Shown here one piece after another: positions 47,294 through 63,581 of a stretch of 64,000 nucleotides of DNA; within the stretch, counting starts at the first letter, position 1; every line of letters starts with the position of its first letter. The stretch is from NCBI GenBank assembly GCA_963741925.1, contig CAVUJU010000002.1, positions 595,978-659,977 on the forward strand. Reading direction: 5' to 3'. The notes beneath the pieces were generated by a model. That model was given only the letters and a program-made list of their open reading frames with translations, was not told where the DNA came from and searched no databases. The position numbers were made by a program, and so were the translations under genes. The DNA is from an uncultured Acidobacteriota bacterium (lineage in GTDB: Bacteria; Acidobacteriota; Thermoanaerobaculia; Multivoradales; DATKCC01).

Positions 47294-48205
<912 letters not shown>

Positions 48206-48235: not shown

Positions 48236-48475
48236 CTACGAGCTCTCTTCTCGCGCCTGGTCGATCAGCCGGACGAGGGCTTCCGCCGCATCCTTCTGGG
48301 AGGACGGCAGAGTTTCCCACAAGCTCCAGAAGGCCTCCTCCATGAGCTCGTAGGCCGGGTCCCCCTTGATCTGCGCCAACGCCATCAGGCGGCGCTTGGC
48401 GTCGGGTGTCAGTCGGGCCGTGAACGGCTCGAGGTCCCGGACCCGTCCGGCGCTTCCTGCTTTCTTCGCCGCCAT
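48236..48475 (-). CDS. 79-aa hypothetical protein (first ~37 codons duplicated at 61984-62092)
   Basis: MAAKKAGSAGRVRDLEPFTARLTPDAKRRLMALAQIKGD... Confidence 0.4.
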   Translation of the reverse strand: MAAKKAGSAGRVRDLEPFTARLTPDAKRRLMALAQIKGDPAYELMEEAFWSLWETLPSSQKDAAEALVRLIDQAREESS

Positions 48476-48599
48476 GGGCTAGAGCTTGGAAGAGAAGAGA
48501 CCTCGTTGTCAAGACAGTCGCCTGGTTGGATTCTTGGCGCTTTGATTCCTGTCCTGCGGCTCGGCCGGTTGACCCTTCCTGCTCGAGACCGCGAGATCC

Positions 48600-49280
48600 G
48601 GTTTCGCCGCCTTCGCTCCGAGAGGAGGAAGCCCCGGGAGTCGTAGTTGAAGAGCCGGGTCTGGGTGAACGAGGTCCCGGCGGCGTTCTTCGCCGTCTGG
48701 CTGACCCGCGCGAGGCGCGAACCCACGTCATAGGAATAGGTCGTCGTCGAGTCGCTGCCGTTCGGGTTCGCCGGCTCGAAGACCTGGTAGAGCCGCCCCT
48801 GGCGGTCGTAGATCTCGGTCGTGGTCGCCGAGGACTCGGTGACCGCCGTGCCGTTCCAGGCGGTGCCGACCTTCACCGTGCGATCGACCTGCCGGACGCC
48901 GTGGTAGGTCAGGGTCACGTCGTGGGCCGAGCCGTCGGGCGGCTGGATCAGCGTCGGGCGGCCGAAGGGGTCGAAGTTTCGATAGATCGTCGCGGAATTC
49001 GTCGCCCACCCGGTCTTCGACCTCACCCAGCCCGCCGCGTTGTAGTTGGTCGCCCGGCTCGAGATCGTGCCGTCGGCCATCGTCCGGCGCTCGAGGGAGA
49101 CCCGGCCCAGGCCGTCGAAGTCGAGCTCCCGGGTCGAGAGGGGCGAGCCGCCGCCGTGGGGCTTGCGGTAGATCCAGACCTTGGGCGGGTCGGTCGGGGC
49201 GCTGTAGAGGAACTGGGTCCGCCCTTCCTGGGCCGGCAGGACCAGGGTCGGCCGCCCGAGGACGTGTCCGGTTGGCAATC
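48600..49280 (-). pseudogene. truncated RHS/YD-repeat gene fragment (no start, no toxin tip)
   Basis: Encodes ...VLGRPTLVLPAQEGRTQFLYSAPTDPPKVWIYRKPHGGGSPL...FNYDSRGFLLSER, near-identical to the internal parts of 56199-61102 and 52259-55135, then diverges into non-coding read-through. Confidence 0.7.
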
Positions 49281-51315
49281 GGGATAGGCCCGGGCGAGCA
49301 AGCCCGCCCGGGTCCCCCCACAGATCCGGACGTGCGGATTTCCCGCATCCGGCTCCTCGTGACACGGGTTCGCTGCACGACGTCAAGCGGCGTGGACGAT
49401 CTTCGGCCGCGGCAAGGGGTAGGCGCCGAGGAGGCGGACGAACCGCTCCCAAGGCATCGACCTCTTGCCCGACCGCCGGTCGAGCCACTTGCGCCACTCG
49501 CGCGTGACCTGGCGGTAGAAGTTGTCGAGTGCGTGGAAGTTGCCGGTAATGCCGTAGTAACCGTAGTGGCCCTGCAGCGCTCGCGACAGCCGTCGCTGCT
49601 GCGTCGCCACGGGGTCGTGACGGCCCTGCCGACACCGTTCCCGCATCCGACTCATCGACCGAGCAAACCGACTCGCGGCCGTCGTGCGCTTGACCACCCA
49701 CGACCCTCGCTGGCGCCCACCCTTGCCCCAGAAGTGCGTGAACCCGAGGAAGACGAAGGTGCCCGGACCCTCGGGCCCGGACCCGTCGCTCCCCCACCGT
49801 GGCCGGCGGAAGCGCACCCGTCGCGTCTTCTCCGGGTGCAGGCGCAGACCGAAGCGGGCGAGCCGCTTCGGCAGCACCTCTTCCACCCGACGGGCGTCGT
49901 GCTCGTCGGCGAAGACGATCACCAGATCGTCCGCATACCGCACCAGCACAGCGCGCCCACGAAGCCGCGGTTGGACCTCTTCCTCCCACCACCGGTCCAC
50001 CACCTCGTGAAGGTAGACGTTGGCCAGCAAGGGCGAGATGACGCCTCCCTGCGGAGTCCCCGCCTCGGGGTGACGTACACGCCCCTCTTCCATCACACCC
50101 GCCTGCAGCCACTTGCCAATTGCCCTCCGGATCACGCCGTCGCGCACCCGGCGGTCGAGAAAAGACCTCAAGTGGTCCCGATCCAGCTCGTCGAAGAAGC
50201 TCTGGATGTCGACCTCCAGTACCCACCCACCCCCGAGCTCGGAGAGCTCCTTGCGCAGAACGCGCAGCGCATCGTGCGCCGAGCGACCGGGCCGAAAGCC
50301 GTACGAGCAGTCCAAGAAGTCCTCCTCGTAGATGGCCTCCAGCACCATCGTCACCGCACGCTGCAGCACCTTGTCTTCGAAGGTGGGGATCCCGATCGCA
50401 CGGGTCTCCGACCCGGTGCCTTTCGGAATGTGAGCCCGCTGGACCGGCGGCGCTCGGTAGAGGCCTGACTTGAAGCGGTCGAGAAGCGACCGGAGGTTGC
50501 CCCCGAGGTTCTCCTCGTACTGCTTCGCCGTCCGGCCGTCGATGCCTGGCGCTCCGTCCTTGCGGGTCCGGGAGTAGGCCTCCCAGAGCCAGTGCTCGTC
50601 GATGTAGTGAGCCAGACTGAGAAACGACCGCTCGTGGTCCTCCCTCGCCAGCCTCGCTATCCGACGAAGTCGCGTTGAGATGCTCCCGAGATTCGGCGAT
50701 CCCGACATCGTTCCCCTCGTTCGGTTCCGTGTCCCGGAGCCCCCCTTCCCTCCACCGGGTCCCTTGGGTCGGTTCCCCGGCTTCCACGGTACTACGGGGG
50801 CTCTCTGACTCCCCACCACCCTTCCCGCCGGGCTCGGTTTCCTTCGCCGGGCGGTACCGCCTGTGCGACCGCTCCTTCGCTCCCGGGGTGCGCGGTCGGC
50901 CTCGACCACGGGCCTGGATCTTGGGTCAGCCGGGACCCTCACCGGCACGTTCTTCGGCGGAGATGGAAGGGCCTCCCAGGTTCCTGGAGGGACCCTTGGA
51001 CGTATGCCGTGCTCTCTGACCCCGGCCGAGCCCTTGCGCCAGGCCATTGCGGCGCTCGGGTGCTGTCGCCCGTTCCACTACAAGGACGACCTCAGCGAGA
51101 CGTGCATTTCGAGGCTCCATCACACGGCCTCCGCCCTCGCTGTCTACGCTTCGCAGGTGCCCTTGCGGTGCCGCCCACGCAAGACTCGCTTCTGGCTGGT
51201 GGCCAACCTTTGCCAGGCGGGGCTCACACCCGCCGGGTCCCATCTGGAAAGTTTCCGGCTCTGTTGACCCGCGTCTACATCACCTTCCTCCTTCCCCAGG
51301 CTTTGCCTGGCGCAC
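49280..51315 (-). mobile_element. group II intron (~2.0 kb) with intron-encoded RT/maturase
   Basis: The reverse-strand 5' end is GTGCGCCAGGCAAAGCC (51315 downward). The domain V hairpin GAGCCGGATGCGGGAAATCCGCACGTCCGGATCT lies at 49302-49338, followed by a domain VI-like helix. The IEP ORF lies in the domain IV position. Confidence 0.75.
49383..50708 (-). CDS. group II intron-encoded reverse transcriptase/maturase (no En domain evident)
   Basis: RT motifs RAIGIPTFEDKVLQ, PQGGVISPLLANVYL, RYADDLVIVF and the maturase/X region WLQAG...FLGFTHFW. SD GAGGGGAA precedes the ATG at 50708. Confidence 0.85.
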   Translation of the reverse strand: MSGSPNLGSISTRLRRIARLAREDHERSFLSLAHYIDEHWLWEAYSRTRKDGAPGIDGRTAKQYEENLGGNLRSLLDRFKSGLYRAPPVQRAHIPKGTGSETRAIGIPTFEDKVLQRAVTMVLEAIYEEDFLDCSYGFRPGRSAHDALRVLRKELSELGGGWVLEVDIQSFFDELDRDHLRSFLDRRVRDGVIRRAIGKWLQAGVMEEGRVRHPEAGTPQGGVISPLLANVYLHEVVDRWWEEEVQPRLRGRAVLVRYADDLVIVFADEHDARRVEEVLPKRLARFGLRLHPEKTRRVRFRRPRWGSDGSGPEGPGTFVFLGFTHFWGKGGRQRGSWVVKRTTAASRFARSMSRMRERCRQGRHDPVATQQRRLSRALQGHYGYYGITGNFHALDNFYRQVTREWRKWLDRRSGKRSMPWERFVRLLGAYPLPRPKIVHAA

Positions 51316-51401
51316 AGTGGCTGGCACCTCTCCGCCGGCACCAGGGTCGGCCGCCCGCGAGGACGTCACCGGTTGAAAGGCGGCTGGCACCTCTCTACAG
51401 C

Positions 51402-52262
51402 TTACCACCCCTCTTTAGCAGCGGTCACTCGTATGAGCAACGGGAGCTGGAGCTCGATCCGCGCGTTCGCGCTAGAACCGGTAGGTCTCTGTTCCAAGTG
51501 ATAGACGAAGGTGGTCGTCAAGGTCTTGCTCGTTTCGGGGCGAAACTGCCATGTTTCGATGTTGGCGGCGGCCTCGGCGCCGAGAAGGCGTTCTCCCGAG
51601 AGCAGCTTCGTGGAAATCACCTTTCCTGCCTGCACTACGACTTTCAAGACCACTTCGCCCGAAATTCCGGCTCGCCGAGCCATCTCAGGATACTTAGGTA
51701 CTTCCGCCGCAACGACTAGAGGCGGCTTTTCCTCCGTTCGAAATCGGATTACCCTGGCAGCGATCTCGCGCGGCGCGGGATGCGCTTCGAGAACCTCGTT
51801 CACGACAAGCTTGGTGCGGAAGCCGTCAAGATGCCCATATCGCCTTCCAGAAACCCGATTCGCATACGCCACAATGGGATTCACTGACAAGTCCTCGGGA
51901 CCCAAAGGCTTCGGGCCGTAGAGTTCGCCGCGAATTGTGACCGAGGCAGAGTGGGACGCCTCGAGAATTCGATCTAAAACGTTACGCCCTGGAGCCTGCG
52001 AACTGACTTCGACCCACGTCGAGGGCTGGACGTCCCATGGGCACAGTGGGTAGTCCGGATCAAAAAAGACCTGTTGCTCCATGCCACTCAGGATTACTCC
52101 AGAGAGGCGAACAGGGATCCGTTGTCCCGCGTTCGCCCTTACCAATGCGGAGCAGAGGTAGAGAACTTCTTCCTGGTTCCTCGCAGTTTGAGCCGGCTGG
52201 CCGCCCAGCACGGTCAGAAGAATTGCTGCTCCTACGCTCAGAGTGATGCTCTTCATAGTCAT
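51402..52262 (-). CDS. exported protein with C-terminal TonB_C-like domain; candidate immunity protein of the orphan RHS toxin
   Basis: Signal peptide MTMKSITLSVGAAILLTVLG and a C-terminal PKYPEMARRAGISGEVVLKVVV. GC is ~50%. It lies immediately downstream of the RHS C-terminal tip. Confidence 0.45.
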   Translation of the reverse strand: MTMKSITLSVGAAILLTVLGGQPAQTARNQEEVLYLCSALVRANAGQRIPVRLSGVILSGMEQQVFFDPDYPLCPWDVQPSTWVEVSSQAPGRNVLDRILEASHSASVTIRGELYGPKPLGPEDLSVNPIVAYANRVSGRRYGHLDGFRTKLVVNEVLEAHPAPREIAARVIRFRTEEKPPLVVAAEVPKYPEMARRAGISGEVVLKVVVQAGKVISTKLLSGERLLGAEAAANIETWQFRPETSKTLTTTFVYHLEQRPTGSSANARIELQLPLLIRVTAAKEGW

Positions 52263-55135
52263 TGCCAGTCTGGAAGCTGGCGTGGCCCTTGGTCCTCGGG
52301 ATTTACGTGGTAATCGCCACTAGGGTTTGCCAAAATTCTCTTGATGGCCATGTTCACTTCTGCGTCCGTCTTCAATCCACCACCGAGAACGCACCCGCTG
52401 CAGCCGGTCGAGTATCGTTCGCCGGCCTGTCTGTACACGGAGTTAGTCAAGTGGAAGGCATTGGTCTCGGTCTGATAGACAGTCAGGTTCTTAGATATGT
52501 CATATGTAACCCACGGCGCGGACGGCAAATTCTGGAAAGTGCTGACAAACGCGCCAGCATCAAGGAGATGTTGTCCTTCGTGAGCGACAGCCGCTCTCAG
52601 CTCGGTCCCATTGAGACCTGGTTTTAGAGTGACGATTCCGCCCAATAGCCAGCTGCCATCGGCGTTGTTCTGCGCGTATGCCTTGGTCGTGCCGCTAGCT
52701 TCTTTGGTATCGCCGAAAGCCACCGTGATGCCGTTGCTCTCGCCAGGCTCGCCGTAAGAGAGAGCTGCATTTCGGACTGCTTCGTCCTTGCTCTTGAGGT
52801 CCTCTTGACGTGCGTTCTCGAAGGAGGCGGAATCTTTCTTGCACTGCCCTTCGTCGTCGATGGAGCAATTCACAACATAGTTGCCGGTCGGATCTGTGTA
52901 TTTGAGAGGATTGTCCTCGGTGTACGCATAGCGATTCCACGACTGCGGCTGGCGAGCGTTTCCGAGAACTGGGTCCACCCGTAGGAACCGCCCGAGCTGG
53001 GGGTTGCAGAACCTCGCATGCATGTAGTCCAAGTCGTCGGCCGCCGAGCTCGTATTGGCGAGATCTCTCTCGTGGCCGGCGAATTTCATGCGCTCGGTGT
53101 CCTGGGTGGGGTTCGTCGCCTCTTCGCCGAAGGGGAAGTAGGCGTGGTAGGCGAGGCCCTGGCCCGAAGCGTTGGTGATGAACCGGACCGAGCCCAGGTG
53201 GTCGAGGTGGAAGTGCTGGACCCCCGAGGGGGTGACCGCCGCCAGGAGCTGGCCGCCCCGGTAGACGTAGTCCCGGTCGACCGACCAGCCGCCGCCCAGG
53301 TTCTTGTAGTCGCGCAGGACCTTGCCGTCCAGGTCCCGGACTGTCCAGTGTGAGGTGTTCGCCGCCAGGTCGTAGGACCAGATCCGCTCGCCGTCGGCCG
53401 TGTAGAGGTAGAGCCAGTCCTTCGAGCCGGGGTTGAAGTCCCACATCTGATCGAGGGCATCGTACTGGTAGGCGTTGCCGTTCCAGGACGTGAGGTTGCC
53501 CGCGGCGTCGTAGGAGACCGCGCCGGTCAGCCGGTTCGTGGTCGAAGAGGTGGGCGTCGAGCGGCCGGTCTTCGTGGTCATGGCCTGGAGGTTTCCGAAG
53601 CCGTCGTACGTGTGGCTGAAGGCGTAGCCCCCCGCGGCCGTGCCGCCGCCCTGGCCGACGTACTGGACGCCCGAGAGCACTCGGTTCACCTTGTCGTAGA
53701 GATAGTACGAGCTCCCCATCTTGGTCACGTCGCCGGCGCCGTCGAAGGTGTAGAGCCCGGTCTGGTAGAGGAGCGTCGTGCCGCGCCTGGCCTCGATCTT
53801 CTGCGGCCGGGGGAGGTTGTAGGGGTCCTTCGCGTAGGTGTCGGTCACCCAGGTCGCGGCGTTGCCCGGCGTGTTGACGTGGGTCACCTGGTTCACCTGG
53901 CCGTTCGGGTGGTAGGTGATCGAGCTCGAGTAGCCCGGCACCGCGGTCAGGAAGCCGTTGGTGTAGGTGGGGCTCACAGTCCGAACCGTCCCGGCAGAGC
54001 AGCCCGCCTGCGTGCACCGCGGGTAGGTCACCGACGCCGGATCCCCCAGGTCGTTCCAGACCCAGCTCTGGGTGAAGCTCTCGGCAGCCGAGCCGTTGAC
54101 CACGTTGACCGTGTTGCGATTCGAGACCCGTCCCTCCTTGCCCCCGTAGGCGTAGGTCTCATCGATCTCGACGGTGTAATTCGTCGCTCCGATCACCGGG
54201 TAATTGTACCCCCGGGCCACCTGGAGCTTGCCCAGGCGGTAATCGCCCGCGCCGTTGGCCGTGGCGAAGGTGAAGCTCTTCAAGGGGCGGTAGAGGCCGA
54301 AGCCCTGCGACTCCTCGACCTTGGTCAGTCGCTCGGCCCCGTCGTAGGTGAAGCGGAGGGTATTCGGCCCGTCCGTCATCTGCCCCGCGTGGCCCCGGGC
54401 GTCGTAGCTCCCGTAGGTGACGTAGCCGTTGCCAGAGGACCCCGTCTCCGGATGGCGCTCCGAGAGGAGGAAGCCCCGGGAGTCGTAGTTGAAGAGCCGG
54501 GTCTGGGTGAACGAGGTCCCGGCGGCGTTCTTCGCCGTCTGGCTGACCCGCGCGAGACGCGAACCCACGTCATAGGAATAGGTCGTCGTCGAGTCGCTGC
54601 CGTTCGGGTTCGCCGGCTCGAAGACCTGGTAGAGCCGCCCCTGGCGGTCGTAGATCTCGGTCGTGGTCGCCGCGGACTCGGTGACCGCCGTGCCGTTCCA
54701 GGCGGTGCCGACCTTCACCGTGCGATCGACCTGCCGGACGCCGTGGTAGGTCAGGGTCACGTCGTGGGCCGAGCCGTCGGGCGGCTGGATCAGCGTCGGG
54801 CGGCCGAAGGGGTCGAAGTTTCGATAGATCGTCGCGGAATTCGTCGCCCACCCGGTCTTCGACCTCACCCAGCCCGCCGCGTTGTAGTTGGTCGCCCGGC
54901 TCGAGATCGTGCCGTCGGCCATCGTCCGGCGCTCGAGGGAGACCCGGCCCAGGCCGTCGAAGTCGAGCTCCCGGGTCGAGAGGGGCGAGCCGCCGCCGTG
55001 GGGCTTGCGGTAGATCCAGACCTTGGGCTCTCGTCGCTTCCTCGGATTGACGTGATCAAATTTAAAGTTCGCTCTCCGGCCGAAGAAGCCACTTGGCGTT
55101 GCTATGTAAGACGCTCGGCGTGGTCTCTTGCGCAA
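52259..55135 (-). CDS. orphan (5'-truncated) RHS repeat cassette with alternative C-terminal toxin domain
   Basis: From KVWIYRKPHGGGSPL through ...CNPQLGRFL it is ~95% identical to the main RHS gene. After the YTDPTGNY boundary it continues into a unique ~250-aa C-terminus. A unique 37-aa N-terminus provides the start. Confidence 0.7.
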   Translation of the reverse strand: MRKRPRRASYIATPSGFFGRRANFKFDHVNPRKRREPKVWIYRKPHGGGSPLSTRELDFDGLGRVSLERRTMADGTISSRATNYNAAGWVRSKTGWATNSATIYRNFDPFGRPTLIQPPDGSAHDVTLTYHGVRQVDRTVKVGTAWNGTAVTESAATTTEIYDRQGRLYQVFEPANPNGSDSTTTYSYDVGSRLARVSQTAKNAAGTSFTQTRLFNYDSRGFLLSERHPETGSSGNGYVTYGSYDARGHAGQMTDGPNTLRFTYDGAERLTKVEESQGFGLYRPLKSFTFATANGAGDYRLGKLQVARGYNYPVIGATNYTVEIDETYAYGGKEGRVSNRNTVNVVNGSAAESFTQSWVWNDLGDPASVTYPRCTQAGCSAGTVRTVSPTYTNGFLTAVPGYSSSITYHPNGQVNQVTHVNTPGNAATWVTDTYAKDPYNLPRPQKIEARRGTTLLYQTGLYTFDGAGDVTKMGSSYYLYDKVNRVLSGVQYVGQGGGTAAGGYAFSHTYDGFGNLQAMTTKTGRSTPTSSTTNRLTGAVSYDAAGNLTSWNGNAYQYDALDQMWDFNPGSKDWLYLYTADGERIWSYDLAANTSHWTVRDLDGKVLRDYKNLGGGWSVDRDYVYRGGQLLAAVTPSGVQHFHLDHLGSVRFITNASGQGLAYHAYFPFGEEATNPTQDTERMKFAGHERDLANTSSAADDLDYMHARFCNPQLGRFLRVDPVLGNARQPQSWNRYAYTEDNPLKYTDPTGNYVVNCSIDDEGQCKKDSASFENARQEDLKSKDEAVRNAALSYGEPGESNGITVAFGDTKEASGTTKAYAQNNADGSWLLGGIVTLKPGLNGTELRAAVAHEGQHLLDAGAFVSTFQNLPSAPWVTYDISKNLTVYQTETNAFHLTNSVYRQAGERYSTGCSGCVLGGGLKTDAEVNMAIKRILANPSGDYHVNPEDQGPRQLPDWQ

Positions 55136-55156
55136 GCCAACAGCAATAGGCCCAAC

Positions 55157-56179
55157 TTACTGCGCGTGATGCAGTGATTGTCTCCAAACTGTCTCAGACT
55201 GGGGTCTGGGTCCAGTGGTCGTGACAAAGACAAGCTCCCTCTCCTCTGCGTTGGAGGCGTCGACGAGCAGCCGATCCGCTCCCGCTCGACGCACAGTCGT
55301 TGGTGACAAGCTTTCGGAGCGCCAGACTTCCCACTTGCTCAGCTCTTCGTCGATCGTCTCGATGTGGCAGTTCTTGGGGTGCGTGGGGCTGACCACCTCG
55401 CAGCTTGCGACGTAGGCTTGCTCTCCTTGTCCGTAAATCCACAAGACGTTCTTTATCTTGAGCTGATCGAGACTAAAATCCTTCCAGATGTACACTCGAT
55501 CGCCTTTCCTAAGCAGTAAGCTTGCTCCGACACGGACAACATCATCTGGCAACCAAGACCAAGGGAAAGTATGATCGACGAACCGCCCGAGCGGGTCGAC
55601 CTCGCGGAGAGCTACGCCTCCGTCAAGCCGCCGGAAGCAGGTCGCTCTTCCGTCTTCTCCGAACCGGGGGAAAAGGCAATCGAGCGGCAAGAGAAGCGAC
55701 CTCCGTAAAGGCCCTCGTGCTGACATAGGTGGGATTTCGATGTCGCACATATCAATATCTATTGTTGCGTTACAAAGAATGACGTCGCCAGCTGCGTCCT
55801 CGGCAGACACGGCTGAGAGACCAAGAGCCATGTCGAGGTATCTCGAGGTCATAGGGGAACCTCCCTCGTCGAGTACGAGAACCCTGCCTTCTTCCTGGTG
55901 TCCCCGGAGAAGCACCACGGTTGACCCCGATGAGGTCTGCCAGAAGGAGCTGATTAACCGAGCATTCTGGCCCTTCAGAAGCGGCTCCCATCCGCGCTCA
56001 ATACTCCACGAACATATGCCATCATCTTGTGGGCATAAAAGAGCAAAGCCCACAGGACTCTTCGACGTCGGTGAACTCTCAGCGCTTAGTGAGAAGCCAA
56101 GTCTCATGGCCAGTGCTCCGAGGACTATCAAGGAGCGTGAGACGTGAGAAAGCTTAGCGGTCAGGCGGTATCTTCTCAT
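55157..56179 (-). CDS. low-GC hypothetical protein; candidate immunity protein for the main RHS toxin
   Basis: Possible start MRRYRLTAKLSHVSRSLIVLGALAM (signal-like); the track ORF alternatively starts at 56218. GC is ~52%. It sits directly downstream of the RHS toxin tip. Confidence 0.4.
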   Translation of the reverse strand: MRRYRLTAKLSHVSRSLIVLGALAMRLGFSLSAESSPTSKSPVGFALLCPQDDGICSWSIERGWEPLLKGQNARLISSFWQTSSGSTVVLLRGHQEEGRVLVLDEGGSPMTSRYLDMALGLSAVSAEDAAGDVILCNATIDIDMCDIEIPPMSARGPLRRSLLLPLDCLFPRFGEDGRATCFRRLDGGVALREVDPLGRFVDHTFPWSWLPDDVVRVGASLLLRKGDRVYIWKDFSLDQLKIKNVLWIYGQGEQAYVASCEVVSPTHPKNCHIETIDEELSKWEVWRSESLSPTTVRRAGADRLLVDASNAEERELVFVTTTGPRPQSETVWRQSLHHAQ

Positions 56180-56198
56180 GGACGGTTTCTCTGTATCT

Positions 56199-59100
56199 TC
56201 AATAGTCTTGGTGCACAAGCCTGTCGAGCAGATCCCGGCCAGCTCTCAAAGAACCTAGACCTGAAATTGCGTTTAGCTGTTGCTGTCTCTCCCTTCTGTT
56301 CCTTGGTTTCTTTGCTTCTTTCAAATCTTTGGCGATTTGCTTCTGAGCCTTGAGCGCCGCGTCCGACTCGTAGCCGGTGTATGATAGCCGAACTCCCGTT
56401 TCATTTTTTTTGAAACGCGCCTTAAGTGTCATTCCTGTTTCGCGCAGCTCCAAAACGTGGAACAACTCGTGACCGACGCGGGCAGCTCCGTAGTCGCCGA
56501 CTCGTAAGTGGATGACTACGCTCACTGCCCCGTCCTTGTAGAGAGTTTGGTCTTGGACGGCGTCGCTGCCCGGCGGCGACGTTGCCTGGGGAGCTCCAAA
56601 GTCCACGAGTACTTCGCTGGCTGGAAGGTTGTCTAGGGCTGTAAAGATTCTTTCGAACTCAGCGCTGTGAGAACGTCCGCTTGTGACGCTTTCCTGTAGC
56701 CAGTCGGGAACACGTACTTCTTGACCGTCGGGATCAGTCAAAGTTAGTGGGTTGGCTCTTGAATAGAGATAACGGTTCCAGCTCTGTGGCTCGGCTGGCA
56801 CAGCTGCCTCGGTAACATCAGTCGAGAGAAACCGCCCAAGCTGCGGATTGCAGAACCTGGCATGCATGTAGTCGAGGTCATCCGCAGCCGAGCTCGTATT
56901 GGCGAGGTCGCGCTCGTGCCCGGCGAATTTCATGCGCTCGGTGTCCTTGGTGGGGTTCGTCGCCTCTTCGCCGAAGGGGAAGTAGGCGTGGTAGGCGAGG
57001 CCCTGGCCCGAAGCGTTGGTGATGAAGCGGACCGAGCCCAGGTGGTCGAGGTGGAAGTGCTGGACCCCTGTGGGCGTGACGGCCGCCAGGAGCTGGCTGC
57101 CGCGGTAGACGTAGTCGCGATCGACCGACCAGCCACCGGGGCCGTTCTTGTAGTCGCGCAGGACCTTCCCGTCCAGGTCCCGGACCGTCCAGTGGGAGGT
57201 GTTCGCCGCCAGGTCGTAGGACCAGATCCGCTCGCCGTCGGCCGTGTAGAGGTAGAGCCAGTCTTTCGAGCCGGGGTTGAAGTCCCACATCTGGTCGAGG
57301 GCATCGTACTGGTAGGCGTTGCCGTTCCAGGCCGTGAGGTTGCCCGCGGCGTCGTAGGAGACCGCGCCGGTCAGCCGGTTCGTGGTCGAAGAGGTGGGCG
57401 TCGAGCGGCCGGTCTTCGTGGTCATGGCCTGGAGGTTTCCGAAGCCGTCGTACGTGTGGCTGAAGGCGTAGCCCCCCGCGGCCGTGCCGCCGCCCTGGCC
57501 GACGTACTGGACGCCCGAGAGCACTCGGTTCACCTTGTCGTAGAGATAGTACGAGCTCCCCATCTTGGTCACGTCGCCGGCGCCGTCGAAGGTGTAGAGC
57601 CCGGTCTGGTAGAGGAGCGTCGTGCCGCGCCTGGCCTCGATCTTCTGCGGCCGGGGGAGGCCGTTCGGGTCCTCGAAGTAGGTGTCGGTCACGCCGTTCG
57701 TCCGGACGACCTGGTCGACCTGGCCGTTCGGATGGTAGGTGATCGAGTTGCTGTAGCCCGGCACCGCGGTCAGGAACCCGTTGGTGTAGGTGGGCGTCAC
57801 GGTGCGGATCGTCCCGGCCGCACAGCCCGCCTGGGTGCACCGCGGGTAGGTCACCGACGCCGGATCCCCCAGGTCGTTCCAGACCCAGCTCTGGGTGAAG
57901 CTCTCGGCAGCCGAGCCGTTGATCACGTTGACCGTGGCGCGATTCGAGACCCGTCCCTCCTTGCCCCCGTAGGCGTAGGTCTCATCGATCTCGACGGTGT
58001 AGTTCGTCGCTCCGATCACCGGGTAATTGTACCCCCGGGCCACCTGGAGCTTGCCCAGGCGGTAATCGCCCGCGCCGTTGGCCGTGGCGAAGGTGAAGCT
58101 CTTCAAGGGGCGGTAGAGGCCGAAGCCCTGCGACTCCTCGACCTTGGTCAGTCGCTCGGCCCCGTCGTAGGTGAAGCGGAGGGTATTCGGCCCGTCCGTC
58201 ATCGTCCCCGCGTGGCCACGGGCGTCGTAGCTCCCGTAGGTGACGTAGCCGTTGCCAGAGGACCCCGTCTCCGGATGGCGCTCCGAGAGGAGGAAGCCCC
58301 GGGAGTCGTAGTTGAAGAGCCGGGTCTGGGTGAACGAGGTCCCGGCGGCGTTCTTCGCCGTCTGGCTGACCCGCGCGAGACGCGAACCCACGTCATAGGA
58401 ATAGGTCGTCGTCGAGTCGCTGCCGTTCGGGTTCGCCGGCTCGAAGACCTGGTAGAGCCGCCCCTGGCGGTCGTAGATCTCGGTCGTGGTCGCCGAGGAC
58501 TCGGTGACCGCCGTGCCGTTCCAGGCGGTGCCGACCTTCACCGTGCGATCGACCTGCCGGACGCCGTGGTAGGTCAGGGTCAAGTCGTGGGCCGAGCCGT
58601 CGGGCGGCTGGATCAGCGTCGGGCGGCCGAAGGGGTCGAAGTTTCGATAGATCGTCGCGGAATTCGTCGCCCACCCGGTCTTCGACTTCACCCAGCCCGC
58701 CGCGTTGTAGTTGGTCGCCCGGCTCGAGATCGTGCCGTCGGCCATCGTCCGGCGCTCGAGGGAGACCCGGCCCAGGCCGTCGAAGTCGAGCTCCCGGGTC
58801 GAAAGGGGCGAGCCGCCGCCGTGGGGCTTGCGGTAGATCCAGACCTTGGGCGGGTCGGTCGGGGCGCTGTAGACGAACTGGGTCCGCCCTTCCTGGGCCG
58901 GCAGGACCAGGGTCGGCCGGCCGAGGACGTCGTACTGGTAGGTGGTGGCGAGCCCCGAGACGTCGCGGCTCGTCTTGACCAGGCCGCTCCCGAGGTCGAT
59001 CACCCGATCCAGGGACTTGAACGGCTGGCCCGAGTACTGCGAGCTCGCCAGCACGCCGGCCTGGTAGCTGTGGTCGATCTGGTACCTCGCGGCCGGCAGG

Positions 59101-61102
59101 GCGAGCCCGCAGAGGCCCCCGGTCCCGAGGCCCTGCGTGTCGCCGCCGAAGAACTTCTCGCTCGTGACGTTGCCCACGCCGTCGCGGACGTAGACCGTGA
59201 CGAGGTCGGTCGAGCTCCGGGTCGTCCCGCTCCGAAGCGTCCGGGTACTCGTGAGAGCGCCCGTCGTGCCGTCGAAACAGGCCTCGGTTTTGGCCGTCAC
59301 GCCCCCCTCGGTGACCGTTTGGTAGGTGTAGGTGCCGAGCAACCAGGCCGCGCCTGTCGCCGGCGTGCAGGTGGCGCAGGAGCCCGGGTTGTAGTTGGTG
59401 AAGGTGGTGCGCACGTTGCCGGCGGCGAAGTTGCCGCCCGTCGCGACCTGGCGGTAGTGGCCCAGGCCGTCGAAGCTCGAAGAGTTTGTGTCGGCAAAGG
59501 TCCCGCCGTCGTCCACGTAGACCGTCCGCTCCGAGGCGACCCGCGGGTTGAAGTCCTGGCCGCTCGACTCGTAGCGCACGTAGATCCGCCGCTTGACCGC
59601 GCTCGCCCCCTGGCGGATCTCGCTCGAGAGGAACCGAGTGCCGCTCGCGTCCTTGGCGTTGCGGGTGAAGGGCAGGCCGTAGTCGTGGTACGACCAGCCG
59701 CCCGGGTCCGGGTCCTGGGTGGAGCAACCGCTGATCCCAGGCTGGCAGGCGTAGACGCTGAAGTAGTGGGTCGTCTGGTTGCCGAGGGGGTCGGTCACGG
59801 TCGTCGTCGACGCGCGCCCGATGCCGGAAGAATCGGAGGTGAACCCCTCCTGGTAGGTCCACGTCCCCTCGACCGTGCCGTCGGCCTGGACCGTCTGGCG
59901 CTGGACGACCCCCACCGAGCGGCTGAAGGGCCGCAGGCCGAAGCCACCGCTGGGCCCCTGCTTCAACACCCCGCCCAGAGTCTCGGACCTCTTGGGGAAG
60001 AGGTAGTAGTTCCAGCTCCACCGGAGCGTGCCGTGGGTCGGGAGCGTCATCGAGAGCAGGTGGGCCGACCGGCTGTCGGTCTGGGCGAGGTCGCAGGCGC
60101 CGTGGTACGGGCCGGGGTCGTAGGTGAAGTCATAGGCCGGCACCTGGCTCTGCGGCGTCCGCGGGTCGCTCCGCGTGATGCTCGTCAGCAGCGGGACGAC
60201 CACCGTGGTCGAGGCGTAGGCGCACGAGAGGGCCGGATCGGTCATCCCTCGCGTCACCTCGGTCCCCGAGTAGTGGAAGGTGTAGGTGAGCGTCTGGCCG
60301 CCGAAGGCGGTCACGACCACCCGGTCCACGACGCCCTCCTTGTACACCTTCGCGAGCGCCGGCGCCGGCTTGAAGTAGATCATCTGGACCCGGTGGAGTG
60401 AGTCGGTGAGCCTCCAGTTCTCGAGGCCCGGGTAGGTTGCCGAGGCGAGGTACTCGATGTTCAGGAAGTTGCCGAACCGGTCTTCGATCCGGGTGGGCCG
60501 TTCATTCCCCGTCTTCGAATCCTTCACCAGATCACGCCGGGTGCCGTCGGGGAACTCGAGAACGTGGGGCGCGACGCTGGTGTTGTAGCGCAGGTAGGTG
60601 CTGTCCTTCGTGTACTTGAAGCCGGTGGCGGTCGACCCTCCGAGGTGGAGGCTGACGGCGAGGGGGTGTTCGGCTCCGTCGGGGCTCCGGTAGCCGCCCG
60701 GGTTGGTGTTGGTGGTCGGCTCGACGGTCCCGAAGGAGAGGTGCCAGCCGAGCCCCGAATTGTCTGAGGCCCGAGGCACGGCCATCAGGTAGTAGCCGCC
60801 GGTGGCGAGGTTCTCGTCGAGCTCGTAGTCCCAGACATTGCCTGTATACGTCAAGACGAGGGGTACAGAGAAGCCGCCGTTGACCGGGTACGAGGCGAGC
60901 GGAATCTGTACCGTGAGGTTTCCGTTGAACTCGTTGATGCTGTCGAGGTCCCCGAGCTGGTAGAGGTGCTCGGGCTGGAAGCCCTGGGCGTGATTCGGGT
61001 GCTGGAGGCCCGCGGCCGGCAGGGCGGCCAGGGCGAGGAGTAGGGCGAGCCCGGCGGCCGGGCGAAGGGTGGAAGGGCGGGGCGAGGCGGAAGGGCTCAT
61101 GG
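56199..61102 (-). CDS. full-length RHS/YD-repeat protein with signal peptide and C-terminal HExxH toxin-like domain
   Basis: Start ATG 61102 with GGAGAG SD, then signal MSPSASPRPSTLRPAAGLALLLALAALPAAG. Many YD repeats, an RHS core ending ...TDPDGQ, and a C-terminal ~215 aa containing GHELFHVLE. Confidence 0.8.
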
Positions 61103-61126
61103 TCGTCTCTCCGGGGCGGGGTCGGT

Positions 61127-61900
61127 TCAGGGCTCTTGGCCCGGCGGCACCAGCCGGGCGGCGAAGTAGTCGAGGGTGTCCAGGTTGACCGCCATCACCA
61201 CGTCGCCGACGGCGAGCTCGGCCGGCGGTGCCGGGGCGGCCTCGATCGGAAGGGCCGAGGCGAGGTCGACCTCGGCGCCGGCAGCCGTCGGGCTGCCTTG
61301 CGCCCCGCGCGACGCCGCCCCGCGCCAGGCCCCCACCCCGGGCCGGACGAAGAGGACCTCCGCCCGCTCCCAGGAGGTGTGGAGCCGCCTCACCACGCCC
61401 CCCGGCGCCTGGGCGAGACCGTCGGCCGGGAAGGCGACCTCGTGGGCGATCGACCCCTCCGGGCTCGCGAGGCCGAGCTCGCCGGTGCCCGTGTCGATCG
61501 CCGCCCAGACCGAGAACGGGGCGACGCCGTCCGGCACTTCGTAGCGGAGGGTGCCCGTCGCGTCCGCCGTCAGGACCTCGTCGGTCGGTACCAGCGCCCA
61601 GTAGTAGACATCGTGGTAGCGGCTCACCCCGTGGAGGATCACCTCCGCCGCCGGCCCGAGGCCGCTCACCACCACCGCGTCCGGCTCGAATGCGATCTCC
61701 GGCGGCGAGCTCGCCGCCGGCTTCAAGGGGATCGGTGCCATCGCCCCCGCGGCGACCGACCCCGCGAGGAACGAGGTGAGGACCAGGAAGCCGACCCGCC
61801 AGGAGGCACGAAGCGGCCTCGCGACCCGGCAACCAGGAGACCAACGTCCGTAACCCCGCGAAGGATCTGTCGCGGTCGAGTCCTTCGGTCTTCTTGTCAT
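61127..61900 (-). CDS. hypothetical membrane-anchored/exported protein upstream of RHS
   Basis: MTRRPKDST...RVGFLVLTSFLAGSVAAGAMA, about 255 aa. The track ORF 61127..62110 extends 5' into the duplicated small-gene fragment. Confidence 0.4.
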   Translation of the reverse strand: MTRRPKDSTATDPSRGYGRWSPGCRVARPLRASWRVGFLVLTSFLAGSVAAGAMAPIPLKPAASSPPEIAFEPDAVVVSGLGPAAEVILHGVSRYHDVYYWALVPTDEVLTADATGTLRYEVPDGVAPFSVWAAIDTGTGELGLASPEGSIAHEVAFPADGLAQAPGGVVRRLHTSWERAEVLFVRPGVGAWRGAASRGAQGSPTAAGAEVDLASALPIEAAPAPPAELAVGDVVMAVNLDTLDYFAARLVPPGQEP

Positions 61901-61983
61901 GAGCATTCTCCCAATATGTAGCGAAGCGTCGGGCCCTGTCCGAGCGGCCACCGCGCCGGGCTGCGGGACCACCTGGCCGCCCT

Positions 61984-62092
61984 CGATCTGCACCAGTGCC
62001 CTCAGACGACGCCCGGCGTCGTGCATCAGGCGAGCCGTGAAGGGCTCGAGATCCCGGACCCGCCCATCTGCTTTGGCTTTCTTGCTGACCAT
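61984..62092 (-). pseudogene. 5' fragment (about 37 codons) duplicating the small gene at 48236-48475
   Basis: MVSKKAKADGRVRDLEPFTARLMHDAGRRLRALVQIEG versus MAAKKAGSAGRVRDLEPFTARLTPDAKRRLMALAQIKG. The nucleotide similarity extends a few bp upstream of both ATGs. Confidence 0.6.
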
Positions 62093-62294
62093 GGGCTTGA
62101 GCTTATACACGGAGATGTACGCATGTCAAGAACTTTCTGCATTGAGATTCCTGGCGCCCAGATTCACGCCGGCGGGCTGGCGGAGAGCTTCCGGGGCCTT
62201 CCGGGTGGCCGGCCTCGGGTGACACAGGGTTCAGGTAGAGCGAGGATGACCTGGCGGGCCACCGACCGGCGAGCGGGCGATTGTCGGACCTGGC

Positions 62295-63581
62295 CTATCG
62301 CCAGGTCGCGGCCCGCCGGCGCAGGGCCTCGGCCTCGGCCACCTTGGTCGGCAACTCGAGCCGGCGGAAGACGGGGAGGGCTTCCTCCGTCAGGCGTTCG
62401 ACCTCGTGGCGTTCATGCTGGTCGGCTTGGAGCTCGGCCAGATCGAGTGCCACATGCGCCGCGTCGTAGAAGAGACCGACCGCAGCGAACTCGCTGCGGA
62501 CTCCGGTGAGCCCCGCGAGAGCGTCTTCCCGGTCGCCGCCTCGCCGGGAAATCTTCGCCATGACCCATCTCTGTCGAAGTCGGCTGATGGCATCGCTCTG
62601 GCGCTCGAAGAGCTCCTCGCTTTCGCGGGCCACTCGGATCGCCTGCTCCAGATTGCCGGCGTCGCATTGGTAGTTCACGAAATGCTCGCGCGCGAAGCGC
62701 AGCAGGCGCGCGTCCGGTGCCGCCTGCAGCACCCTTTCAACTTCGCCAACAGTTGCCAGGGCAGGTTCAAACTGACCCTGCCTGCTCTGTGCCCGACCCA
62801 GGTTGAGGAGCGTCGAAGCGGCCAATCGTGGCCTGCTCTCCAGGCGGTACACCATCAATGCGCGCAGTAGGCGCGAGATTGCCAGGTGAGGGCGCCACTG
62901 GTCAGTCCGGAGACTCCCTTCGAGACCATCCAGCTCCGCCCGGAGAAGGCGGTCGCCGCAGCCGAGGGTGCGGAAGAAGTACCGGGCGTCGCCCAGGATT
63001 TGATCGGCCCGCGGCAGGTCGCCGATGACCCGGATCGCGTTGGCCAGGTAGGCGAGGGCGCGGACGTAGAGCTCGCAGGCGTAGGCGGAGAGTGGAGTGT
63101 GGTGGAGGACGAGGCGGGCGAGGCGGGCGTGGGTGGCCGCTTCCTTCGGACGCTCCGGGGCCTTCTTCCGGCTGTCCTCGATGAGCATCTCGGCCAGGAG
63201 GAGGCCCGCGAAGCGCTCCGGCTCGCGGCGGACCCGCTCCGCCTGTTCGGCGGGCGAGAGGCGAAGGAGCTCCTCGGCCCCGGAGCGGGCCTCACGCTCT
63301 TCGGCCGCGGCCCTGGCTTCCTGGGCGCCCGGCACGTCGTTCGAGTTGGCGGGCTTGGGCGCCACCCTGGCCCGGAACCGATCGAGGACCGCCTCGTAAT
63401 CCTCGGGGCCGGTCGCGGGGACGCCCTCGCCCAGCTCCCGGCGCCAGGACTGAAACTCCCTACGGCACCGCGGGCAGAGCTCGAAGAGGTGAGCCAGGGC
63501 GATGGCGGCCAGGTCGCCGGGGTTGCGCCAGCCGCCGGAGATCGCCCGGAAGAGGTCGCGGGTGACGTGCTCGTCGGTCAC
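62295..63581 (-). CDS. hypothetical alpha-helical/TPR-like protein
   Basis: 428 aa with no catalytic motifs. A partial paralog lies downstream of 63837. Confidence 0.4.
   Translation of the reverse strand: MTDEHVTRDLFRAISGGWRNPGDLAAIALAHLFELCPRCRREFQSWRRELGEGVPATGPEDYEAVLDRFRARVAPKPANSNDVPGAQEARAAAEEREARSGAEELLRLSPAEQAERVRREPERFAGLLLAEMLIEDSRKKAPERPKEAATHARLARLVLHHTPLSAYACELYVRALAYLANAIRVIGDLPRADQILGDARYFFRTLGCGDRLLRAELDGLEGSLRTDQWRPHLAISRLLRALMVYRLESRPRLAASTLLNLGRAQSRQGQFEPALATVGEVERVLQAAPDARLLRFAREHFVNYQCDAGNLEQAIRVARESEELFERQSDAISRLRQRWVMAKISRRGGDREDALAGLTGVRSEFAAVGLFYDAAHVALDLAELQADQHERHEVERLTEEALPVFRRLELPTKVAEAEALRRRAATWR

What the first reader, a model, noticed from the sequence alone, without database searches (positions are those of the whole stretch)
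48236..62092. RHS island is bracketed by a direct duplication of the 5' ~110 bp of a small gene next to xerD
The first ~37 codons of the 79-aa gene (48366-48475) recur at 61984-62092 in the same orientation, ~13.6 kb away, exactly enclosing the low-GC RHS/intron region. These could be att-like direct repeats of an integrated island (integration into the 5' end of the small gene with target reconstitution), or substrates for excision.
Basis: seen in the sequence. Interest (0 to 1): 0.55.

Follow-up and report, generated by a model that had tools for sequence, protein, structure and literature searches.

The report
Diverged gene-fragment repeat flanking RHS toxins
A 13.6-kb RHS toxin gene cluster lies between an intact small regulator-like gene and a decayed copy of that gene's promoter and first 37 codons, and the pair looks like scars of homologous recombination in a rearrangement-prone toxin locus, not attachment sites of a mobile island.

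Summary
The repeat is real: 48355-48487 matches 61972-62104 at 78% (E 7e-21), and weaker similarity runs about 75 nt further into a shared promoter. It is not att-like. The longest identical run is 11 nt, the enclosed segment encodes no recombinase, and the neighbouring gene is housekeeping XerD.

In every relative the small gene (S) follows a TPR gene. In the five closest relatives a full-length S directly precedes p245-RHS. So the truncated right copy sits at the ancestral position. The intact left copy sits on the variable side of a synteny break at the 5' end of xerD. The closest xerD relative has no S, TPR or RHS there, and no empty site was found.

The two copies are reciprocal mosaics. 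The right copy resembles relatives up to about codon 22 (pN/pS 0.12), then looks neutral (0.89). The left copy is divergent in its promoter and codons 1-11, then strongly conserved (0.04). The breakpoint test gives p=0.0025.

My best reading (~0.45) is a homologous crossover between an intact S and an old S relic carried with the RHS segment. The main rival is old paralogues joined by a deletion. This is ordinary RHS-locus plasticity and of modest interest.

The parts
47294..48205 (-). xerD, the housekeeping chromosome-dimer resolvase. The true start is possibly 48163. Synteny with close relative L015 begins at about 48183-48190.
   Evidence: Pfam Phage_integrase plus SAM_1. NCBIfam TIGR02225 recomb_XerD scores 375 bits against a cutoff of 329.6. 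7,421 homologues at E<1e-60. L015 synteny 37044-48183 at 84-93% nt.
48236..48475 (-). S_L, the only intact copy of the small gene S (79 aa). It has a disordered N-terminal tail followed by three helices and may have a ribbon-helix-helix-like fold.
   Evidence: Translation. 24 homologues, 52-91% identical. pN/pS is 0.04 for codons 12-37 and 0.23 for codons 38-79. AlphaFold2 pLDDT 80. The top Foldseek hits are all RHH antitoxins or regulators, but none is significant (E>1). No Pfam or NCBIfam hit.
48476..48548 (-). Left-copy promoter/operator: GAATC-N10-GAATC, a TTGACA -35 box and a degraded -10 box (TCCAAG). It is strongly diverged from relatives (27 of 63 sites).
   Evidence: Alignments A4 and A5, mismatch counts, promoter comparison. 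The strict sigma-70 scan finds nothing.
48549..48613 (-). Filler of about 65 nt with no detectable homologue, between the RHS breakpoint and the left promoter.
   Evidence: Sharp loss of identity to the main and orphan RHS at 48614/48613. No blastn match anywhere in the window or in the 27 loci.
48614..49277 (-). Internal RHS core fragment with no C-terminal toxin (orphan 2, the 3' exon side of the intron). It is 99% identical to main RHS 58279-58930.
   Evidence: blastn self-comparison, alignments.
49278..51315 (-). Group II intron (5' GTGCG at 51315) with a reverse-transcriptase ORF at 51047-49383.
   Evidence: Rfam RF02005 128 bits and RF00029 47 bits. Pfam RVT_1 E 1.5e-32. Sequence.
51316..51392 (-). 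5' flank of the intron. A 62-nt unit is tandemly duplicated here, and the intron sits in the second copy.
51402..52262 (-). 286-aa protein with a TonB_C domain. It is the putative immunity or accessory gene of orphan 1 (inferred from position only).
   Evidence: Pfam PF03544 E 1.8e-9. TIGR01352. GC 57.7%.
52259..55135 (-). Orphan RHS 1. Its core (52983-55028) is 95% identical to main 56827-58851, and it carries its own C-terminal domain with an HEGQH motif.
55157..56218 (-). 353-aa ORF downstream of the main RHS, the putative immunity gene (inferred from position only). No family hit.
   Evidence: GC 55.6%.
56199..61100 (-). Main RHS/YD-repeat toxin (1,633 aa from MSPSASP..., with a signal peptide). 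Its C-terminal domain carries an HELFH motif.
   Evidence: Pfam RHS_repeat, TIGR03696, GC3 frame analysis, start and C-terminal domain. 70% aa identity to the L010 RHS.
61127..61906 (-). p245', the conserved partner gene upstream of RHS. Its C-terminal 200 aa are 71-82% identical to relatives, but its N-terminus differs from theirs.
   Evidence: tblastn against L009, L010, L013, L014 and L017. GC3 0.9-1.0 from about 61800 to 61127.
61755..61981 (-). Replacement segment of about 227 nt with no homologue. It stands where relatives have the 3' half of S, the intergenic spacer and the 5' end of p245. It supplies a new RBS, start codon and N-terminus for p245'.
   Evidence: Alignments A4 and A5. 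No blastn match.
61982..62092 (-). S_R, the relic of S codons 1-37. Codons 1-22 resemble relatives (pN/pS 0.12); codons 23-37 look neutrally decayed (pN/pS 0.89, 76-78% nt identity to all relatives).
62093..62165 (-). Right-copy promoter/operator: GAATC-N10-GAATC, TTGACA and TATAAG. It is contiguous with the TPR gene, as in all relatives.
   Evidence: L010 9923-10113 matches 62171-61980 at 79%.
62295..63581 (-). TPR gene, the conserved upstream neighbour of S in every related locus. The 3' end of a second TPR paralogue lies at 63864-64000.
   Evidence: Pfam TPR_12. Synteny. Paralogues P0146 and P0148 are on the same source contig.

Best explanation
The repeat consists of two copies of the promoter and 5' end of S. 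S is a small, probably DNA-binding gene that normally sits between a TPR gene and an RHS polymorphic-toxin operon.

Shown:
- The right copy is a 37-codon relic at the conserved TPR-S-p245-RHS position. Its 3' half and the start of p245 have been replaced by about 227 nt of unrelated sequence.
- The left copy is the only intact S. It abuts a sharply truncated RHS core fragment on one side and the 5' end of housekeeping xerD on the other, on the variable side of a synteny break.
- The four sub-segments have contrasting histories. R promoter/codons 1-22 and L codons 12-79 look like one continuously functional gene, with similar synonymous distance to relatives (pS 0.34 and 0.39) and low pN/pS. 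L promoter/codons 1-11 and R codons 23-37 look like one long-decayed relic.

Inferred:
- One reciprocal homologous crossover, in the best-conserved block (codons ~8-23), joined an intact chromosomal S to an old S relic lying at the head of the RHS segment. The partner was either a circular or tandem 13.6-kb form of the cluster, or a donor allele introduced by flanking homology.
- This left a hybrid relic in front of the toxin operon, still providing its promoter, and a hybrid but intact S behind it.
- The process is general (RecA-type) recombination of the kind that continually reshuffles RHS main and orphan modules. It is not integrase-mediated att recombination, and xerD is a bystander.
- Today the two copies are too diverged to be efficient excision substrates. 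The near-identical RHS cores are the active recombination substrates.
For: - Homology of the copies.
- TPR -> S adjacency in all related loci.
- Full-length S -> p245 -> RHS in L009, L010, L013, L014 and L017.
- Replacement segment and filler have no homologue.
- Sharp RHS breakpoint at 48614.
- Mismatches to the relatives' consensus: promoter L 27/63 vs R 17/63; codons 1-11 L 10/30 vs R 1/30; codons 23-37 L 2/44 vs R 9/44.
- Single-breakpoint test on 50 informative sites: chi2 13.4, permutation p=0.0025. The chi2 maximum lies at nt +23/+24 and the R-to-L switch spans roughly +24 to +68.
- Pairwise identities: R tail 88-91% to L010/L013/L014/L017, L tail 58-61% to everything; R codons 23-37 76-78% where even distant family members keep 82-98%.
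- Nei-Gojobori pN/pS: R 1-22 0.12, R 23-37 0.89, L 1-11 0.51, L 12-37 0.04.
- Both copies share a derived operator change (GAATC-N10 with GCGCCA, against GAATC-AA-GAATC-TA-GAATC in L010/L013/L014). This places the origin of the relic within this lineage.
- No recombinase in the segment, XerD is housekeeping, and there is no dif site.
- RHS loci are documented to rearrange by duplication plus homologous recombination between main and orphan cores: PMC3967940.
Against: - The mosaic rests on few sites (50 informative; 2 vs 7.5 nonsynonymous differences).
- Uneven selective constraint could mimic it. The N-terminal tail is disordered and variable across the family, and the right promoter may be conserved because it drives the toxin operon.
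- A crossover needs homology, yet the copies now share only 11 nt of perfect identity, so the relic must have been more similar at the time.
- No circular form, tandem form or empty site was observed.
- The predicted pre-insertion state (TPR-S-xerD) is seen in no relative. The five closest relatives instead carry RHS directly after a full-length S, so extra steps are needed to explain how the relic first arose.
- The RHS-fragment/filler/promoter junction is an illegitimate join that the crossover model does not itself explain.
Confidence: 0.45

Rival explanations
1. Old paralogues juxtaposed by deletion. TPR-S modules are tandemly duplicated in this group. An RHS cluster lay between two modules (TPR-S1-RHS...-TPRd-S2). 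In this lineage one illegitimate deletion, from inside an RHS core fragment to about 140 nt upstream of S2, removed the second TPR gene. Independently, the 3' half of S1 was overwritten when a new p245 N-terminus or RHS allele was acquired. On this view the mosaic reflects uneven constraint, not a crossover.
For: - S paralogues flank the TPR gene in L001, L003 and L018.
- There are three TPR paralogues in L010 and three on the source contig.
- In L010 the RHS cluster also ends in an internal core fragment with no toxin domain, fused directly to a paralogous TPR gene. TPRc and TPRd are 92% identical over 691 nt.
- One deletion explains the sharp RHS/filler junction.
- 78% identity between the copies fits the 72-92% identity between the TPR paralogues.
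- The S N-terminal tail is disordered and variable across the family.
Against: - If S_R had been a pseudogene long enough for codons 23-37 to reach pN/pS 0.89 and 22% divergence, codons 1-22 should not retain pN/pS 0.12 and 88-91% identity to L010-type alleles.
- The derived operator change shared by both copies needs gene conversion or parallel change.
- No S2-type orthologue exists among 24 database homologues or 15 loci.
- In L010 TPRd has no S partner.
- It needs two independent events.
Confidence: 0.3
2. The 13.6 kb is a site-specific integrative island whose attL and attR are the two copies of the S 5' end. It was inserted by a tyrosine recombinase (for example the neighbouring XerD-like enzyme), the target gene was reconstituted, and the island can still excise.
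For: Direct repeats bracket a segment of lower GC. A tyrosine recombinase gene lies next to the left repeat. The reciprocal hybrid pattern is formally what attL and attR would show.
Against: - There is no identical core: the longest shared run is 11 nt, with 78% identity overall.
- The recombinase is the housekeeping XerD, conserved in synteny with its downstream genes in relatives that lack S and RHS upstream.
- The segment has no integrase or excisionase, and the window has no dif-like site.
- Five relatives carry the homologous p245-RHS genes after a full-length S, i.e. not inserted at this site.
- The apparent second case of truncation at the same codon (P0023/L005) is Illumina adapter read-through.
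- The left end of the segment is a broken RHS core plus filler, not a defined element terminus.
Confidence: 0.05
3. Assembly artefact. The contig is mis-joined across repeated RHS cores, so the two S copies are not really 13.6 kb apart on one molecule.
For: The locus contains 573-652 bp repeats at 99-100% identity and a 2-kb repeat at 95%. The source appears to be a metagenome-derived contig.
Against: - The S copies are only 78% identical and cannot themselves cause a collapse.
- Gene order (TPR, S relic, p245', main RHS, orphan) is collinear with L010 over more than 5 kb.
- The left junction (RHS fragment / filler / S_L / xerD) is unique sequence.
- The source contig is 1.49 Mb, which suggests long-read data.
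Confidence: 0.03

Closest known systems
Rhs/YD-repeat polymorphic toxin loci with main and orphan modules (e.g. Salmonella Typhimurium rhs; Koskiniemi et al. 2014, PMC3967940)
   Same: There is a full-length RHS gene with a variable C-terminal toxin and a downstream small gene. It is followed by orphan core fragments sharing 95-100% identity with the main core. The C-terminal/immunity modules have lower GC. The locus is documented to rearrange by duplication and homologous recombination between cores.
   Different: Here the cluster also carries a core fragment with no toxin domain that is interrupted by a group II intron. The whole cluster is bracketed by a diverged partial copy of its upstream neighbour gene. 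The host is a Thermoanaerobaculia-type acidobacterium. There is no T6SS context in the window, and the RHS protein has a signal peptide.
Integrase-mobilised genomic islands that insert into a gene end (classically tRNA/tmRNA 3' ends) and reconstitute it, leaving att direct repeats
   Same: A direct repeat of one end of a target gene brackets a compositionally distinct segment. One end retains an intact gene and the other a displaced fragment. The copies show a reciprocal hybrid pattern.
   Different: There is no island-encoded integrase and no identical core. The repeat is about 180 nt at 56-78% identity, not a short exact att site. It includes the promoter and the 5' end rather than the 3' end. 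The cargo is ancestrally linked to the 'target' gene in relatives.
Campbell-type (single-crossover) integration, or flanking-homology allelic exchange by general recombination
   Same: It predicts exactly two direct, reciprocally hybrid copies of the shared homology flanking the inserted DNA, with the breakpoint in the best-conserved block.
   Different: No circular or donor form was observed. Present-day homology is too low for efficient RecA recombination, so the event must pre-date part of the divergence, or the relic has decayed since.
Ribbon-helix-helix (CopG/Arc/MetJ-type) regulators and antitoxins
   Same: The size is similar. A conserved LEPFTARL segment is followed by two helices. Direct GAATC repeats lie next to its own -35 box. 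The top structural neighbours are all RHH DNA-binding domains.
   Different: There is no Pfam or NCBIfam membership, and the Foldseek matches are not significant (E>1). The monomer model shows a short helix where an RHH has its beta-strand. There is an extra C-terminal helix. DNA binding is untested.

Membership tests
Site-specific integrative genomic island (att-flanked) | Element-encoded integrase or recombinase | tested here: not met
   Pfam and NCBIfam scans of all large ORFs between the repeats find only RHS, RT (group II intron) and TonB_C. The adjacent recombinase lies outside the repeats and is housekeeping XerD.
Site-specific integrative genomic island (att-flanked) | Direct repeats with an identical core at both junctions | tested here: not met
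   78% identity, with a longest identical run of 11 nt.
Site-specific integrative genomic island (att-flanked) | Empty site in related genomes (uninterrupted target with the same flanks) | tested here: not met
   About 25 related loci were examined. TPR-S is followed either by RHS or by unrelated genes, never by xerD. Close xerD relatives L015 and L016 have no S upstream. Sampling of same-species genomes was not possible because look-ups of the source contig returned nothing.
Site-specific integrative genomic island (att-flanked) | Compositional difference from the host chromosome | tested here: met
   65.3% GC against 72% for the rest. The drop is confined to the toxin-tip and immunity modules (54-58%), as is usual for RHS loci. 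The cores are 68-70%.
Rhs/YD polymorphic toxin locus with orphans | YD/RHS repeats and an RHS-associated core domain preceding a variable C-terminal domain | tested here: met
   PF05593 hits in the main, orphan and fragment copies. TIGR03696 Rhs_assc_core scores 43.8 and 34.3 bits against a cutoff of 32.5. The C-terminal domains diverge after ...NPL.(L/Y)TDP.G.
Rhs/YD polymorphic toxin locus with orphans | Orphan fragments sharing near-identical core sequence with the main gene | tested here: met
   2,046 bp at 95%, and 573-652 bp at 99-100%.
Rhs/YD polymorphic toxin locus with orphans | Cognate immunity gene immediately downstream of each toxin tip | not testable with these tools
   ORFs 55157-56218 and 51402-52262 are in the right position but match no immunity family.
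Ribbon-helix-helix DNA-binding proteins (for gene S) | Beta-alpha-alpha fold, or membership of an RHH sequence family | tested here: inconclusive
   No Pfam or NCBIfam hit. A PDB profile search gives only spurious armadillo-repeat matches. The AlphaFold2 model has pLDDT 80 with helices 24-37, 41-55 and 58-78. Foldseek top hits are RHH antitoxins and PutA (rmsd 0.6-1.2 A over 34-36 residues), but E is 1.1 or worse.
XerD chromosome-dimer resolvase | Score above the equivalog cutoff, and conserved chromosomal synteny | tested here: met
   TIGR02225 scores 375 bits against a cutoff of 329.6. More than 11 kb of downstream synteny with L015 at 84-93% nt.
IMEX (Xer-exploiting element integrated at dif) | dif-like XerC/XerD site at the junctions | tested here: not met
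   No ATAA-N6-TTAT-type site, and no 28-mer within 11 mismatches of E. coli dif, anywhere in the window. The true dif consensus of this phylum is unknown.
Bacterial group II intron | Domain I-IV and domain V/VI RNA structure plus an intron-encoded RT | tested here: met
   RF02005 128 bits and RF00029 47 bits. RVT_1 E 1.5e-32. 5' GTGCG at 51315.

The most novel reading that the evidence does not exclude
The RHS cluster behaves as a recombination-borne cassette that carries a relic of the promoter and 5' end of its conserved upstream neighbour (S) as a portable homology arm. It can enter or leave genomes that possess S by a single homologous crossover. It keeps S intact while capturing the resident S promoter for the toxin operon. 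This would be an integrase-free way of moving a polymorphic-toxin island between related acidobacteria.
Probability: 0.15. Interest if true: 0.5.

Novelty: new member of a known kind. Interest (0 to 1): 0.27.

Why it matters
If the crossover reading is right, this locus is a clean natural example of a toxin cluster gained or shuffled by homologous recombination through a short shared gene segment. One hybrid copy keeps a regulator intact and the other donates its promoter to the toxin operon. That is useful for understanding how RHS arsenals turn over in uncultured Acidobacteriota. It also cautions against calling att sites from direct repeats alone. Otherwise this is ordinary RHS-locus plasticity. 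It does not reveal a new mobility mechanism or enzyme.

Tried and rejected
- Recurrent truncation of S at the same codon. P0023 (46 aa, ending ...IKGGQ) looked like an independent insertion at the same site, but its contig L005 runs into the Illumina adapter AGATCGGAAGAGCACACGTCTGAACTCCAGTCA. Rejected as an artefact.
- XerD as an island integrase. Rejected.
- dif/IMEX integration. No dif-like site.
- Retro-copy of S made by the nearby group II intron RT. Rejected because the left copy includes its own -35 box and operator, which an mRNA would lack.
- Simple tandem duplication of [S-p245-RHS up to the breakpoint]. This predicts the truncated RHS before a second complete S-p245-RHS unit, whereas here S_L is followed by xerD. 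Considered and set aside as needing extra precise deletions.
- Non-reciprocal gene conversion between the copies. This would make one tract identical in both copies, and none is.
- Origin of the 227-nt replacement segment and the 65-nt filler. No homologue in the window or in the 27 fetched loci.
- Retrieving the source contig or its right-hand continuation. Exact look-ups of S_L, P0016 and P0145 returned nothing, so the right boundary of the non-syntenic region and same-species variants could not be examined.
- Sigma-70 consensus scans found no site at either copy. The promoter call therefore rests on conservation of TTGACA and T(A/C)TAAGCT across the family.
- A PDB sequence-profile search for S gave only spurious designed-armadillo matches.

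Full report
**1. The observation**

The minus strand carries, in order of transcription:
- a TPR gene (63581-62295);
- the right copy of the repeat;
- a p245-like gene (61906-61127);
- a 1,633-aa RHS toxin (61100-56199);
- a 353-aa ORF;
- an orphan RHS (55135-52259);
- a TonB_C protein (52262-51402);
- a group II intron (51315-49278) inside an RHS core fragment that has no C-terminal toxin domain (ending at 48614);
- the left copy, which is an intact 79-aa gene (48475-48236; here called S);
- xerD (48205-47294).

A blastn self-comparison aligns 48355-48487 with 61972-62104 at 77.8% identity (E 7e-21). Alignment with relatives shows that the similarity continues about 75 nt upstream of the ATG. 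This upstream stretch is a shared promoter with two GAATC repeats, a TTGACA -35 box and an AAGCT-type -10 box about 9 nt before the ATG.

**2. What S is and where it normally lives**

S has only 24 homologues among 5.8 billion proteins, all from metagenomes or MAGs of Thermoanaerobaculia/Acidobacteriota. It matches no Pfam or NCBIfam family. An AlphaFold2 model (pLDDT 80) has a disordered tail (residues 1-14) and three helices. Its nearest solved structures are all ribbon-helix-helix antitoxins or regulators, but none is significant. The regulator label is therefore a lead only.

In every related locus recovered, S lies directly downstream of a TPR gene (L001, L003, L004, L006-L008, L009-L011, L013, L014, L017-L027). 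In the five closest relatives (S 81-91% identical: L009, L010, L013, L014, L017) a full-length S is followed within 40-65 nt by the p245 homologue and the RHS gene. More distant relatives have TPR-S followed by unrelated genes. None has xerD after S. The truncated right copy therefore occupies the conserved position. Relative to these genomes it has lost the 3' half of S, the spacer and the start of p245. These are replaced by about 227 nt with no detectable homologue, which provides a new RBS, start codon and N-terminus for p245'.

**3. The xerD side**

The recombinase is a bona fide XerD. It scores 375 bits against the TIGR02225 equivalog (cutoff 329.6) and has 7,421 homologues at E<1e-60. 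In the close relative L015 (XerD 94% identical) the window is syntenic from 37044 to 48183 at 84-93% nt identity. Homology stops at the very 5' end of xerD. Upstream, L015 has DUF4386, glyoxalases, a toxin-antitoxin gene and IS elements, but no S, TPR or RHS. L016 gives the same picture.

S_L therefore belongs to the variable side of a synteny break and is not a resident neighbour of xerD. Immediately upstream of S_L's promoter lie 65 nt of orphan sequence. Beyond that is an RHS core fragment whose identity to the main and orphan genes ends abruptly at 48614. This is an illegitimate junction. The window has no dif-like site.

**4. Is it an att pair?**

No feature of site-specific integration was met:
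- there is no recombinase between the repeats;
- there is no identical core;
- no empty site was found;
- the homologous RHS genes in relatives are not inserted within S.

One apparent second case of truncation at the same codon (P0023) is adapter read-through in a public assembly. As recombination substrates the S copies are poor. The RHS cores inside the cluster (573-652 bp at 99-100%, 2,046 bp at 95%) are the kind of repeats shown experimentally to drive rhs rearrangements (PMC3967940).

**5. The mosaic**

I compared each copy with the consensus of L009, L010, L013 and L014:

| Segment | Left copy mismatches | Right copy mismatches |
|---|---|---|
| Promoter (-75 to -1) | 27/63 | 17/63 |
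| Codons 1-11 | 10/30 | 1/30 |
| Codons 12-22 | 2/32 | 2/32 |
| Codons 23-37 | 2/44 | 9/44 |

Of 50 informative sites, those 5' of about nt +24..+68 mostly agree with the right copy and those 3' of it with the left copy (max chi2 13.4, permutation p=0.0025).

Pairwise identities:
- The right tail is 88-91% identical to the L010-type alleles, whereas the left tail is 58-61% identical to everything.
- Right codons 23-37 are 76-78% identical to all family members, although even distant members keep 82-98% there.

Nei-Gojobori counts:

| Segment | pN/pS | pS |
|---|---|---|
| Right codons 1-22 | 0.12 | 0.34 |
| Right codons 23-37 | 0.89 | 0.25 |
| Left codons 1-11 | 0.51 | 0.63 |
| Left codons 12-37 | 0.04 | 0.29 |
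| Left codons 12-79 | 0.18 | 0.39 |

R(promoter to codon 22) and L(codons 12-79) thus look like pieces of one continuously selected gene, at the same synonymous distance from relatives. L(promoter to codon 11) and R(codons 23-37) look like pieces of one long-neutral relic. Both copies also share a derived operator state, GAATC-N10(GCGCCA)-GAATC, against GAATC-AA-GAATC-TA-GAATC in L010/L013/L014. This argues that the relic arose within this lineage.

**6. Best explanation and rivals**

The simplest event that yields two direct, reciprocally hybrid copies flanking a segment is a single homologous crossover. The partners would be an intact S and an S relic at the head of the RHS segment. The segment would have been in circular or tandem form, or introduced as a donor allele through flanking homology. 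I put this at about 0.45.

It replaces att/integrase chemistry with general recombination. It leaves two things unexplained: how the relic and the RHS-fragment/filler junction first formed, and why the predicted TPR-S-xerD state is not seen.

The main rival (about 0.30) is that the two copies are old paralogues from tandem TPR-S modules, brought together by one deletion, with the mosaic due to uneven constraint. Several findings support it: S and TPR paralogues occur in relatives. In L010 the RHS cluster likewise ends in a core fragment fused to a paralogous copy of the upstream flank (TPRc/TPRd 92% over 691 nt). Against it, the right copy's codons 1-22 are well preserved next to decayed codons 23-37.

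Strict att-island integration (about 0.05) and misassembly (about 0.03) are unlikely.

**7. Novelty**

The content is a typical RHS main/orphan locus, here in an acidobacterium, with a group II intron as passenger. The flanking partial gene duplicate is a rearrangement scar of a known general kind. It is a new member of a known kind and of modest interest. The most novel reading not excluded is an integrase-free RHS cassette that uses a relic of its neighbour gene as a portable homology arm (probability about 0.15).

Noticed in passing
window 49278-51392 (- strand): A group II intron (5' GTGCG at 51315, 3' end at 49278, RT ORF 51047-49383) is inserted in an RHS core fragment that has no toxin domain. 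The insertion point lies in the second copy of a 62-nt tandem duplication (51392-51331 vs 51330-51316 plus 49277-49232), so about 45 nt of RHS-like sequence occur on both sides of the intron.
   Followed up: partly
window 48476-48548 and 62093-62165; L010 9923-10000, L013, L014, L017, L007: S-family promoters share TTGACA, an 18-19 nt spacer and T(A/C)TAAGCT ending about 9 nt before the ATG, so the mRNA is nearly leaderless. They are preceded by 2-3 direct GAATC repeats, a candidate operator. Both window copies have the middle repeat replaced by GCGCCA with one extra nt. The -10 box of the intact left copy is degraded (TCCAAG).
   Followed up: partly
window 61127-62110 (- strand): The 37-codon S relic is in frame with p245', giving a 327-aa ORF. 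GC3 indicates genuine coding only from about 61800, and an internal ATG with a GGGAG RBS lies at 61906. Whether a fusion protein is made is unknown.
   Followed up: partly
L010 17880-18869 and 8388-9078: In the relative L010 the RHS cluster also ends with an internal core fragment lacking a toxin domain (93% identical to its own main RHS 14069-14331). That fragment is fused directly to a paralogous TPR gene whose first 691 nt are 92% identical to the TPR gene upstream of S, and a pyruvate-kinase-like gene follows on the other strand. The same architecture (cluster bracketed by a copy of its upstream flank) therefore recurs with a different repeated gene.
   Followed up: partly
L005 (ena:ERZ27259738:k141_4548) 440-526; protein P0023: This public metagenome contig ends in the Illumina adapter AGATCGGAAGAGCACACGTCTGAACTCCAGTCA followed by poly-A. 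This creates a false 46-aa 'truncated' S protein in the protein database.
   Followed up: yes
window 56199-56826 and 52259-52982: Both RHS C-terminal domains carry HExxH motifs (HELFH in the main gene, HEGQH in the orphan), which suggests metallopeptidase-type toxins. The downstream ORFs (353 aa with no family; 286 aa with a TonB_C domain) are unusual candidates for immunity proteins. GC is 54-58%.
   Followed up: no
window 48163-48235: Homology with L015 starts only at about 48183-48190, so the annotated xerD ATG at 48205, its RBS and any promoter are supplied by sequence unique to this genome, 30 nt after the S_L stop codon. The true start may be 48163, and xerD may be co-transcribed with S_L.
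   Followed up: partly
window 62308-62449 vs 63853-63994; proteins P0145, P0146, P0148: TPR genes form a tandem paralogue family. The window ends inside a second TPR gene (P0148; its C-terminus is 100% identical to 63864-63998). A third paralogue (P0146, 71% identical) lies elsewhere on the same 1.49-Mb source contig.
   Followed up: partly
L001 965-1097, L003 1812-2057, L018 1620-1814: More distant relatives carry a second, diverged S paralogue (52-62% identical) upstream of the TPR gene, in the order S-paralogue / 96-aa gene / TPR / S. S duplication is therefore recurrent in this gene neighbourhood.
   Followed up: no
L006 1323-1514 (protein P0024): Another S homologue diverges from the family after ...NAY (codon ~42) and ends at 63 aa. 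This could be a frameshift or a genuine disruption. It was not examined.
   Followed up: no
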